Assembly (NCBI GenBank): GCA_005222975.1
Contig: NJBI01000055.1
Span: forward strand, 1 to 20,989
DNA: 20,989 nucleotides
Direction of reading: 5' to 3'
From: Promethearchaeota archaeon Loki_b31
GTDB taxonomy: Archaea > Asgardarchaeota > Lokiarchaeia > Sigyniarchaeales > SOKP01
Positions 1,587-1,864 of the stretch are shown here, piece after piece. Positions within the stretch are counted from its first letter, which is position 1, and every line of letters begins with the position of its first letter. Below the pieces are notes generated by a model, which was not told the origin of the DNA, ran no database searches, and saw only the letters and a program-made list of their open reading frames with translations. The translations under genes and the position numbers were made by a program.

Positions 1587-1864
1587 TTATTTATACTTGA
1601 TCGACAATAGGAGATCGTTTTTGGTAATCTATGAAAGGCGGACTCGAATAGAGCCCAGCATTTTTCGATTTGCATGCATGGTAAAAGCTCGTGCTTGTTC
1701 AGTTAAGCCAATGGCAGTCTTTTCGAGATGGTCAATTAAAAGATCTACTGCGTTTCTTGCTACGATGCTTGCACCTTGCTGCTTCATTAATCTCCTTATT
1801 GGCGACCAGGCAAAACTCCACTCAGAATCGAATTGATCCTTGAACTATGTTTCTTTTTAGCCAT
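1587..1864 (-). CDS. Archaeal histone (HMf-type fold) with a short Lys-rich N-terminus, encoded in three exons: complement(join(1587..1630,1661..1815,1845..1864)), 72 aa
   Basis: Spliced product: MAKKKHSFAWSPIRRLMKQQGASIVARNAVDLLIDHLEKTAIGLTEQARAFTMHANRKKITKNDLLLSIKYK*. It has the histone-fold hallmarks P(I)RRLMK..GA..V, A...HA.RK.I...D. GGAGGA RBS lies upstream. 278-59=219 nt, which is 72 codons plus TAA. Confidence 0.92.
1631..1660 (-). other. Predicted BHB intron 2 (30 nt) in histone mRNA
   Basis: Minus-strand RNA: AAUC GAAA [AA^U] GCUGGGCUC UAUUC GAGUCCGCC UUUC [AU^A] GAUU. This gives an exon helix AAUC/GAUU, a 4-bp central helix GAAA/UUUC, two 3-nt bulges and a 9-position intron stem with one C.C mismatch. 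Splicing gives AAT CGA AAA AAG ATT (NRKKI) and removes an in-frame TAG. Confidence 0.88.
1816..1844 (-). other. Predicted relaxed BHB intron 1 (29 nt) in histone mRNA
   Basis: Minus-strand RNA: GAA ACAU [AG^U] UCA A GGAUC AAUUC GAUUC UGA GUGG [AG^U] UUU. The central helix ACAU/GUGG has one A.G mismatch. The exon helix GAA/UUU is extended by GACCA(U)GGC/GCCUGGUC. Removing 29 nt corrects the frameshift and gives CAT AGT TTT GCC TGG (HSFAW). Confidence 0.8.

What the first reader, a model, noticed from the sequence alone, without database searches (positions are those of the whole stretch)
1631..1660. Intron 2 is a canonical BHB; retention would delete histone helix 3
The RNA forms AAUC/GAUU, bulge AUA, GAAA/UUUC, bulge AAU, then a GC-rich stem. 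The predicted cuts regenerate the conserved L2-loop sequence R-K-K-I. If unspliced, translation reads ..HANRK-MLGSIRVRLS-stop and loses helix 3, including the Asp of the Arg-Asp salt bridge and part of the tetramer interface. Inference: splicing efficiency could gate production of polymerisation-competent histone and tie chromatin supply to tRNA-splicing capacity.
Basis: partly seen in the sequence, partly recalled or inferred. Interest (0 to 1): 0.85.

Follow-up and report, generated by a model that had tools for sequence, protein, structure and literature searches.

The report
tRNA-type mini-intron in Asgard histone gene
A 30-base insert shaped like an archaeal tRNA intron breaks a histone gene of a probable Asgard archaeon and almost certainly has to be cut out of the mRNA by the tRNA-splicing enzymes, a kind of splicing that the papers I could search report inside only one other archaeal coding sequence (cbf5).

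Summary
On the minus strand, 1660-1631 is a 30-nt insert in loop L2 of a histone gene (1864-1587). It folds as a 3-4-3 bulge-helix-bulge: AAUC/GAUU, GAAA/UUUC, bulges AAU and AUA, then a 9-bp stem. The BHB cutting rule gives the only register that restores R-K-K-I.

The in-silico spliced gene encodes 72 aa, identical to an uninterrupted orthologue in the closest relative. Of 42 genomes in the genus, 36 lack both introns, 3 carry intron 2, and 25 metagenome contigs carry an insert at this same site. In 14 aligned 30-nt variants, 88% of cells pair (27-45% when partners are slid), and all nine stem pairs and one exon-intron pair covary. Exon 3 stays conserved in every carrier.

The genome encodes a catalytic and a non-catalytic EndA paralogue and RtcB.

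The proposed "gating" of histone supply has no support. The intron is patchy, variable in sequence and length, and absent from the nearest relatives. No RNA data could be obtained.

Unexpectedly, the intron-bearing alleles form one clade that conflicts with the species tree, which suggests lateral spread by recombination.

This scan has already reported similar histone and mRNA mini-introns in other Asgard genomes.

The parts
1587..1864 (-). Histone gene of three exons. Spliced CDS is 219 nt and encodes 72 aa, MAKKKHSFAWSP...HANRKKITKNDLLLSIKYK.
   Evidence: Pfam PF00808 matches exon 2 alone. The in-silico spliced product is 100% identical to the uninterrupted G017 gene L009:1459-1674:-. PDB 1ku5 HPhA matches at E 1.7e-7.
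1845..1864 (-). Exon 1 (ATG..CATAG, 20 nt)
   Evidence: Comparison with intronless orthologues, which read ATGGCTAAAAAGAAACATAGTTTTGC.
1816..1844 (-). Intron 1: 29 nt, frame-shifting, relaxed BHB (centre ACAU/GUGG with an A.G mismatch, loop AAUUC)
   Evidence: Present in 6 of 42 genus genomes, with compensatory stem changes in G024 and G053.
1661..1815 (-). Exon 2 (155 nt): helix 1, loop L1, helix 2 and the start of loop L2
1631..1660 (-). Intron 2, the finding: a 30-nt BHB mini-intron in phase 1 of codon K59. An in-frame UAG straddles the 3' splice site.
1663..1670 (-). Exon-1-side half of the BHB: outer helix strand AAUC (1670-1667) and central helix strand GAAA (1666-1663), built from codons Asn-Arg-Lys
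   Evidence: Column 6 (the third base of the Arg codon, A or U) covaries with intron column 37.
1626..1636 (-). 3' half of the BHB: central strand UUUC (1636-1633, intron), bulge AU|A (1632-1630) and outer strand GAUU (1629-1626, exon 3)
1637..1659 (-). Inner hairpin: 9-bp stem (8 pairs plus a C.C mismatch) and loop UAUUC
   Evidence: All 9 stem pairs show changes on both sides across 14 variants.
1587..1630 (-). Exon 3 (AG + ITKNDLLLSIKYK + TAA): the rest of loop L2 and helix 3
   Evidence: Conserved as KITKNDL[LV]L[SA]IKY[KV] in all 23 intron-bearing variants.
1874..1878 (-). Ribosome-binding site GGAGG, inside a GTGGAGGAAT motif conserved upstream of all orthologues

Best explanation
Bases 1660-1631 (minus strand) are a bulge-helix-bulge mini-intron inside the coding sequence of an archaeal histone gene. 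A second intron of 29 nt lies at 1844-1816.

Proposed mechanism. In the pre-mRNA, the codons for Asn-Arg-Lys pair with the 3' end of the intron and with the Lys-Ile codons of exon 3. This forms a 4-bp outer helix and a 4-bp central helix, flanked by two 3-nt bulges, above a 9-bp intron hairpin. The genome's tRNA-splicing endonuclease cuts after the second base of each bulge, between 1661/1660 and between 1631/1630. It appears to be a crenarchaeal-type pair of a catalytic and a structural EndA subunit. RtcB then joins the exons. This recreates codon AAG (Lys59) and yields a 72-aa histone.

Splicing is obligatory. Without it, translation ends at a UAG that straddles the 3' splice site, and the protein lacks the rest of loop L2 and all of helix 3.

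The intron most likely has no function of its own. It is a tolerated, structurally constrained insert that is gained, lost and exchanged between related species.

Shown here: the structure, the covariation, the exact restoration of the frame, the conservation of exon 3 and the presence of the enzymes. Inferred: the cleavage and ligation themselves.
For: 1. Geometry and register. The insert has 3-4-3 BHB geometry at exactly the positions that restore R-K-K-I. Neighbouring registers give a stop or a wrong residue.
2. Product. The in-silico spliced CDS encodes a protein 100% identical to the uninterrupted gene of G017, although 43 of 216 nt differ, all synonymous.
3. Orthologues. Of the 42 genus orthologues, 39 read HANRKKITKNDLLL.IKYK without intron 2 at this site. 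Three carry inserts of 30 or 34 nt there, and 36 lack both introns.
4. Metagenomes. 25 matches on 23 metagenome contigs (21 distinct variants) carry inserts of 30-35 nt at the same nucleotide. All give the conserved C-terminus after the predicted splice, and all are truncated or frame-shifted if unspliced.
5. Covariation. In 14 aligned 30-nt variants, 87.8% of cells pair, against 27-45% with partners slid by 1-3 columns. All 9 stem pairs change on both sides. The exon-intron pair 6/37 is U-A in 9 sequences and A-U in 5. No shuffle of 500 reaches the observed covariation score.
6. Chance. A BHB of this quality occurs at about 3e-6 of genome positions.
7. Enzymes. There are two EndA paralogues, each with N- and C-terminal endonuclease domains. 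One best matches the catalytic subunit of the Aeropyrum pernix heterotetramer (3p1z_B, E 3e-34). RtcB is also present.
8. Same genome. A paralogous histone on contig C83 has a 30-nt BHB insert at the equivalent site. An AAA+ gene and a RadA-like gene are split mid-domain by 30- and 31-nt inserts of the same build.
Against: - There is no RNA or biochemical evidence.
- The exact BHB is not the RNAfold minimum; it is 0.2 kcal/mol above it.
- The inner stem has a C.C mismatch.
- Genome-wide, BHB-shaped motifs of this quality are no more frequent than in a mirror-topology control (23 against 21). Shape alone is therefore not diagnostic, and the case rests on position plus comparison.
- All the genomes are metagenome-assembled.
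Confidence: 0.88

Rival explanations
1. Regulatory valve. The intron is kept because the spliced-to-unspliced ratio tunes how much polymerisation-competent histone is made, which would couple chromatin supply to tRNA-splicing capacity.
For: - Retention of either intron abolishes a complete histone fold.
- Every natural variant yields a truncated product when unspliced.
- Both the mRNA and most tRNAs of this genome would depend on the same enzyme. ARAGORN recognises only 14 tRNA genes in 3.5 Mb, which fits the heavily interrupted tRNA genes reported for Asgard archaea (bioRxiv 10.64898/2026.10.13.758758).
Against: - Intron 2 is absent from this gene in 39 of 42 genus genomes, including the closest relatives.
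- Intron sequence, length and retained peptide are not conserved; only the pairing is.
- Two other histone genes in the genome are uninterrupted.
- No ligand-binding or switch-like alternative fold was seen.
Confidence: 0.08
2. Decaying pseudogene. The two inserts are disabling lesions, and the other histone paralogues carry the function.
For: The reading frame is broken twice. The genome has other histone genes.
Against: - There are no other lesions.
- After in-silico splicing the protein is identical to an intact orthologue despite 43 synonymous differences.
- Exon 3, downstream of the stop, is conserved at protein level with synonymous variation in 23 independent intron-bearing variants.
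- The inserts covary to keep a BHB.
Confidence: 0.03
3. Recoding instead of splicing: UAG read-through or ribosomal bypass of the 30 nt, giving a histone with or without a 10-residue insertion.
For: This insert is a multiple of three, and its only stop is a single UAG.
Against: - Sister variants at the same site are 31, 32, 34 and 35 nt long, or carry UAA.
- Intron 1 is 29 nt.
- There are no matching take-off and landing codons.
- Read-through would place 11 foreign residues in loop L2 and lose Lys59.
Confidence: 0.01
4. Assembly or binning artefact that creates a false insert.
For: All the genomes are metagenome-assembled.
Against: Inserts at the identical nucleotide occur in three genus genomes and 23 independent metagenome contigs with 21 distinct sequences. 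A paralogue also carries one in three genomes.
Confidence: 0.01

Closest known systems
BHB intron in the cbf5 (pseudouridine synthase) pre-mRNA of Crenarchaeota (Watanabe et al. 2002; Yokobori et al. 2009, PMC2738675)
   Same: - A BHB intron inside a protein-coding sequence, whose removal restores the reading frame.
- Presence or absence varies among related species.
- The host encodes a heterotetramer-type EndA.
- PMC7714728 (2020) states that cbf5 is the only such mRNA intron reported besides its own 5'-UTR case.
   Different: - Different gene (a histone) and different lineage (a probable Asgard archaeon rather than Crenarchaeota).
- Two introns within a 216-nt CDS.
- The same site is occupied in a paralogue.
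- Many sequence variants exist in nature.
- The allele tree conflicts with the species tree.
- No experimental splicing evidence here, whereas cbf5 splicing was shown.
BHB intron in the 5' UTR of Haloferax volcanii HVO_1309 mRNA (Schwarz et al. 2020, PMC7714728)
   Same: An mRNA is a substrate of the tRNA-splicing endonuclease.
   Different: That intron lies in the untranslated leader and does not interrupt codons. It was confirmed in vivo and in vitro.
Non-canonical tRNA introns of Asgard and other archaea (Marck and Grosjean 2003; bioRxiv 10.64898/2026.10.13.758758)
   Same: - The same hBHBh' motif, half of it built from exon sequence.
- The same enzymes.
- Patchy gains across relatives.
- Short hairpin introns.
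   Different: - The host RNA here is an mRNA.
- The exon half of the motif is made of codons, so it is constrained by the protein sequence.
- That preprint does not mention mRNA or histone introns.
IRE1-dependent HAC1/XBP1 mRNA splicing in eukaryotes
   Same: Spliceosome-independent cutting of an mRNA at a stem-loop structure, followed by ligation (RtcB in metazoa), which changes the C-terminus of the protein.
   Different: The nuclease is different (IRE1 rather than EndA) and so is the motif (twin 7-nt loops). That splicing is regulated. No IRE1 is involved here and no regulation is shown.

Membership tests
Archaeal BHB (hBHBh') intron, substrate of EndA | [quoted passage not shown] | tested here: met
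   GAAA/UUUC with bulges AAU and AUA. The central helix is kept in 14 variants, with exon-intron covariation at pair 6/37.
Archaeal BHB (hBHBh') intron, substrate of EndA | Flanking helices: outer (exon-exon) and inner (intron) | tested here: met
   Outer AAUC/GAUU pairs 4/4. The inner stem pairs 8/9. All 9 inner pairs covary across variants.
Archaeal BHB (hBHBh') intron, substrate of EndA | Cuts after the second base of each bulge give a functional joined RNA | tested here: met
   In silico only. The rule gives the single register that restores RKKI and a protein identical to an intact orthologue.
Archaeal BHB (hBHBh') intron, substrate of EndA | The host encodes the splicing endonuclease and the RtcB ligase | tested here: met
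   Two EndA paralogues; one retains the His of the catalytic motif and the other lacks it. RtcB matches at E 7e-169.
Archaeal BHB (hBHBh') intron, substrate of EndA | Demonstrated cleavage and ligation of the RNA | not testable with these tools
Archaeal histone (HMf family, Pfam PF00808) | Histone fold helix1-L1-helix2-L2-helix3, with the conserved L2 Arg-Lys and the helix-3 Asp | tested here: met
   PF00808 matches exon 2 at E 1.4e-5, above the cut-off. HPhA 1ku5 aligns over residues 11-70. The AlphaFold model has helices 12-20, 26-54 and 62-71. R57, K58 and D64 are invariant in the alignment.
Self-splicing group I or II intron, or intein | A catalytic RNA core of hundreds of nt, or an in-frame protein-splicing domain | tested here: not met
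   The insert is 30 nt with an in-frame stop. Rfam finds nothing in the window.

The most novel reading that the evidence does not exclude
BHB mini-introns in these Asgard genomes may be laterally mobile without encoding any enzyme. They would spread between species by short-tract homologous recombination of intron-bearing alleles.

Evidence for the window's gene:
- The intron-bearing alleles of six genomes form one clade (support 100/98) only 5-28 of 216 nt apart.
- By RtcB, their hosts fall into different species clades, next to relatives with intronless alleles.
- AU tests reject the species groupings on the histone data (p 0.004 and 0.001).
- The window's flanks are about 96% identical to G017, but its histone CDS is only 74-79% identical.

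Evidence for the paralogue on contig C83:
- The intron is 29/30 identical across three species.
- About 15 nt of flanking exon groups with the other intron carriers, while the rest of the gene follows the species relationship. This is a co-conversion pattern.

The L2 site would be a hotspot because its codons supply half of the BHB.
Probability: 0.4. Interest if true: 0.85.

Novelty: new member of a known kind. Interest (0 to 1): 0.72.

Why it matters
In the papers I could search, endonuclease-dependent splicing inside an archaeal coding sequence is documented for one gene only, cbf5 in Crenarchaeota. Here it affects a core chromatin protein in the archaeal lineage closest to eukaryotes. There are two introns in a 216-nt gene, many natural variants, and other interrupted genes in the same genome.

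This matters in three ways:
- Standard gene callers truncate or miss such genes, so Asgard proteomes are systematically mis-annotated at these loci.
- Expression of some proteins in these organisms would depend on the tRNA-splicing machinery.
- The presence/absence polymorphism and the apparent lateral spread offer a tractable natural system for asking how protein-dependent introns are gained and lost in the relatives of eukaryotes.

Tried and rejected
- **Structure-only genome scans.** Scans for BHB motifs showed no excess over a mirror-topology control. Adding an "ORF rescue" filter showed no excess over deliberately mis-spliced controls. A census of mRNA introns in this AT-rich genome therefore needs homology, not shape.
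- **Copies of the intron.** The intron sequence has no other copy in the genome (blastn-short). Its hairpin has no exact match in genome contigs or metagenome contigs.
- **Alignment attempts.** A first MAFFT alignment of six inserts of mixed type was misaligned and was replaced by manual parsing. An ungapped 14-sequence alignment was then used.
- **Flank tree.** A tree from the whole 3-kb loci was unreliable because the flanks are not syntenic in all genomes. It was replaced by RtcB and CDS trees.
- **Other searches.** Rfam and ARAGORN found nothing in the window. The bacterial-type promoter and terminator scan was uninformative.
- **Rejected readings.** Pseudogene, read-through or bypass, and assembly artefact were considered and rejected (see rivals).

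Full report
**1. What is at the site**

On the minus strand a gene starts at ATG 1864, preceded by GGAGG at 1878-1874. In one frame it reads MAKKKHSSR... and stops after 22 codons. In a second frame it reads FAWSPIRRLMKQQGAS...HANRK and then MLGSIRVRLS-TAG. After the TAG the same frame continues ITKNDLLLSIKYK-TAA.

The middle part alone matches the archaeal histone family PF00808 over profile positions 6-54 of 65, above the curated cut-off.

Removing exactly these bases joins AAA-A to AG-AUU and gives R-K-K-I-T. Moving the 30-nt window by one base either way gives a stop or K-N-D-Y, so the register is unique.

**2. The RNA shape**

The region reads AAUC GAAA AA|U GCUGGGCUC UAUUC GAGUCCGCC UUUC AU|A GAUU. 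This is a 4-bp exon-exon helix, a 4-bp central helix, two 3-nt bulges on opposite strands in the orientation known from pre-tRNAs, and a 9-bp hairpin. The hairpin has 8 pairs, one C.C mismatch and two G.U pairs.

- RNAfold's minimum (-12.6 kcal/mol) keeps the outer and inner helices but shifts the centre.
- The BHB-constrained fold is -12.4 kcal/mol, and such folds make up about 20% of the ensemble.
- The rule "cut after the second base of each bulge" gives 1661/1660 and 1631/1630, the same bases that homology demands.
- A BHB of at least this quality at length 30 occurs at 23 of 7.03 million positions of this genome. A mirror-topology control gives 21.

Shape alone is therefore not diagnostic genome-wide. 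Its coincidence with the required excision site has a chance probability of the order of 1e-5.

**3. Comparative test**

The genus holds 42 genomes, and all have this histone.

- In 36 of them the gene is uninterrupted: MAKKKHSFAWSP...HANRKKITKNDLLL[SA]IKYK.
- Intron 2 is present in the window (30 nt), in G024 (30 nt) and in G004 (34 nt). The stem sequences differ but the architecture is the same.
- Intron 1 (29 nt, window 1844-1816) is present in those three and in G005, G016 and G053.
- The window's in-silico spliced CDS encodes a protein identical to the intact gene of G017, although 43 of 216 nt differ, all synonymous.

A degenerate pattern for "exon 2 end, 20-50 nt, exon 3 start" found 25 matches on 23 metagenome contigs, with 21 distinct inserts of 30, 31, 32, 34 or 35 nt at the same nucleotide. 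Several resemble the window's intron: they share the 3' half GAGUCCGCC-UUUC-AUA and the CGA codon.

In every case the predicted splice yields HANRKKITKNDL[LV]L[SA]IKY[KV]. The unspliced reading gives unrelated, truncated or frame-shifted tails. Exon 3 is thus under purifying selection in all carriers, which requires that it is translated in frame with exon 2.

**4. Covariation**

The fourteen distinct 30-nt variants align without gaps. On the BHB structure:

- 87.8% of cells are standard pairs, against 27-45% when the 3' partners are slid by 1-3 columns.
- All nine inner-stem pairs show changes on both sides.
- The covariation score is 0.578, against 0.21 in shuffles (0 of 500 reach it).
- Pair 6/37 links the third base of the Arg codon in the exon to an intron base. 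It is U-A in nine sequences and A-U in five.

The sequences are related, so these numbers are not probabilities. The slid-partner control, which keeps relatedness, is nevertheless clear.

**5. Machinery**

- The genome encodes two roughly 200-aa EndA paralogues, each with the N- and C-terminal endonuclease domains.
- One best matches the catalytic subunit of the Aeropyrum pernix heterotetramer (3p1z_B, E 3e-34) and keeps the GPG-x-H motif.
- The other lacks that His, as expected for a structural subunit.
- This is the enzyme type that, according to PMC5829648, accepts non-canonical substrates.
- RtcB is present at E 7e-169.

**6. Consequence of retention**

An AlphaFold model of the identical G017 protein has mean pLDDT 80, above 90 across the helix 2 and L2 region. 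Its helices are 12-20, 26-54 and 62-71. The intron lies in codon Lys59, inside loop L2 (residues 55-61).

Retention ends the protein at ..HANRK+10 residues. That removes the rest of L2 and all of helix 3, including Asp64. Asp64 is invariant in the family alignment and aligns with the conserved Asp of HPhA. That this Asp forms the Arg-Asp salt bridge and that helix 3 contributes to the tetramer interface is established knowledge about HMf-type histones. It was not tested here.

**7. The gating hypothesis**

Nothing supports it.

- The intron is missing from the nearest relatives. By RtcB identity these are G017 and G009 at 96% and G005 at 94%.
- Only pairing is conserved. Length is not kept to multiples of three.
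- The genome has three further histone genes, two of them intact.

A tolerated, structurally constrained insert is the more economical reading.

**8. Identity of the organism**

- The genome is 3.5 Mb with 31.5% GC, and ARAGORN recognises only 14 tRNA genes.
- The window encodes a gelsolin-repeat protein (E 2e-25) and a RING-finger protein.
- Two of the matching metagenome contigs carry the accession prefix LAZR01. From my own knowledge, unchecked here, this is the Loki's Castle marine-sediment metagenome.

Together these point to a Loki-type Asgard archaeon.

**9. Unexpected: allele history**

Relative to the window, the neighbouring psmB gene and the histone exon 2 diverge in opposite ways:

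| Genome | Histone allele | psmB nt divergence | Histone exon 2 nt divergence |
|---|---|---|---|
| G017 | intronless | 4.6% | 20.7% |
| G016 | intron 1 | 29% | 4.7% |
| G004 | introns 1 and 2 | 23% | 6% |

- Along the locus, the window is about 96% identical to G017 from 1900 to 3300. Across the histone CDS it is only 74-79% identical to G017, yet 97-98% identical to G005.
- On the 216-nt CDS, intron-bearing and intronless alleles split with support 100/98.
- The RtcB tree places G000 and G005 with intronless G017 and G009, and G004 with intronless G002 and G011, each with support 1.0.
- AU tests on the histone data reject both species groupings, p 0.004 and 0.001. The groups came from the RtcB tree, but I had already seen a first histone tree.

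In the paralogue on contig C83:

- The intron is 29/30 identical in three species whose CDSs differ by 13%.
- G000 groups with the other carriers at four consecutive variable sites within about 7 nt of the intron.
- At nine sites elsewhere G000 groups with its own relatives.

The simplest reading is transfer of intron-bearing sequence between species by short-tract recombination. Caveats: these are metagenome-assembled genomes, the sequences are short, and selection on the exon halves of the BHB explains some of the flanking sites, though not all.

**10. Literature**

- PMC7714728 (2020) states that, besides its own 5'-UTR case, only the cbf5 intron had been reported in an archaeal mRNA.
- PMC2738675 describes gain and loss of that cbf5 intron.
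- A 2026 preprint on Asgard tRNA introns (10.64898/2026.10.13.758758) does not mention mRNA or histones.
- Searches combining BHB, histone, Asgard and protein-coding terms found nothing on this.

Earlier notes of this scan report the same phenomenon in this and at least eight other genomes. I treated them as leads. I re-tested here the paralogue, the AAA+ gene and the RadA-like gene.

Noticed in passing
window 1816-1844 (-): Intron 1 is 29 nt and shifts the frame between MAKKKHS and FAWSP. It is a relaxed BHB: centre ACAU/GUGG with an A.G mismatch (perfect in G016, GUGU), bulges AG|U, loop AAUUC. It is present in 6 of 42 genus genomes, with compensatory stem changes in G024 and G053. Carriers also share GACC just upstream of the ATG, which extends the exon-exon helix (GACCAUGGC with GCCUGGUC) in the RNAfold minimum.
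   Followed up: partly
L003 1481-1510 (-) = G000 contig C83; also L038 (G015) and L039 (G002): A second histone paralogue of the same genome carries a 30-nt BHB insert one base away from the equivalent L2 position (centre AAAG/CUUU, loop AUUUA). The insert is 29/30 identical in three species. Exon sites within about 7 nt of it group with the other carriers, while the rest of the gene follows the species relationship. This is a co-conversion-like mosaic.
   Followed up: yes
window 1587-1870 compared with L009 (G017) and L008 (G005): The intron-bearing histone allele conflicts with the species tree. The flanks are about 96% identical to G017, but the CDS is only 74-79% identical to G017 and 97-98% identical to G005. 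AU tests reject the species groupings. This suggests lateral allele replacement over roughly 300 bp.
   Followed up: yes
G000 contig C45 (L060 about 920-949, +); contigs C16 and C63 (L061 about 891-921): An AAA_5 ATPase gene is split at profile position 126 of 139 by a 30-nt BHB insert (UUCG/CGAA, TGA inside). A Rad51/RadA-like gene, present in two copies, is split at position 196 of 244 by a 31-nt insert (GGAA/UUCU). mRNA mini-introns are therefore not confined to histones in this genome.
   Followed up: partly
window 1132-1498: A 367-bp segment holding a 103-aa ORF (1149-1460, minus strand; weak DUF6331 match below the cut-off) is present here but absent from the otherwise 95% identical syntenic locus of G017. 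It looks like a recent insertion or deletion right next to the histone gene.
   Followed up: no
whole genome G000: ARAGORN finds only 14 tRNA genes in a 3.5-Mb genome that is 92% complete, and 6 of them are called with introns. This fits heavily interrupted tRNA genes that standard tools miss.
   Followed up: no
window 2489-5242 and 9952-10983: The proteasome beta subunit gene is followed 99 bp later by a 678-aa helical protein that ends in a RING-H2 finger. A gelsolin-repeat protein (E 2e-25) lies further on. Both are eukaryote-like signature proteins typical of Asgard archaea.
   Followed up: partly
L074 and L083 (metagenome contigs SDBS01034344.1 and SDBT01325418.1): Each contig holds two intron-2-bearing histone genes about 800 bp apart, with different intron variants. 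This looks like a tandem duplication of an interrupted histone gene.
   Followed up: no
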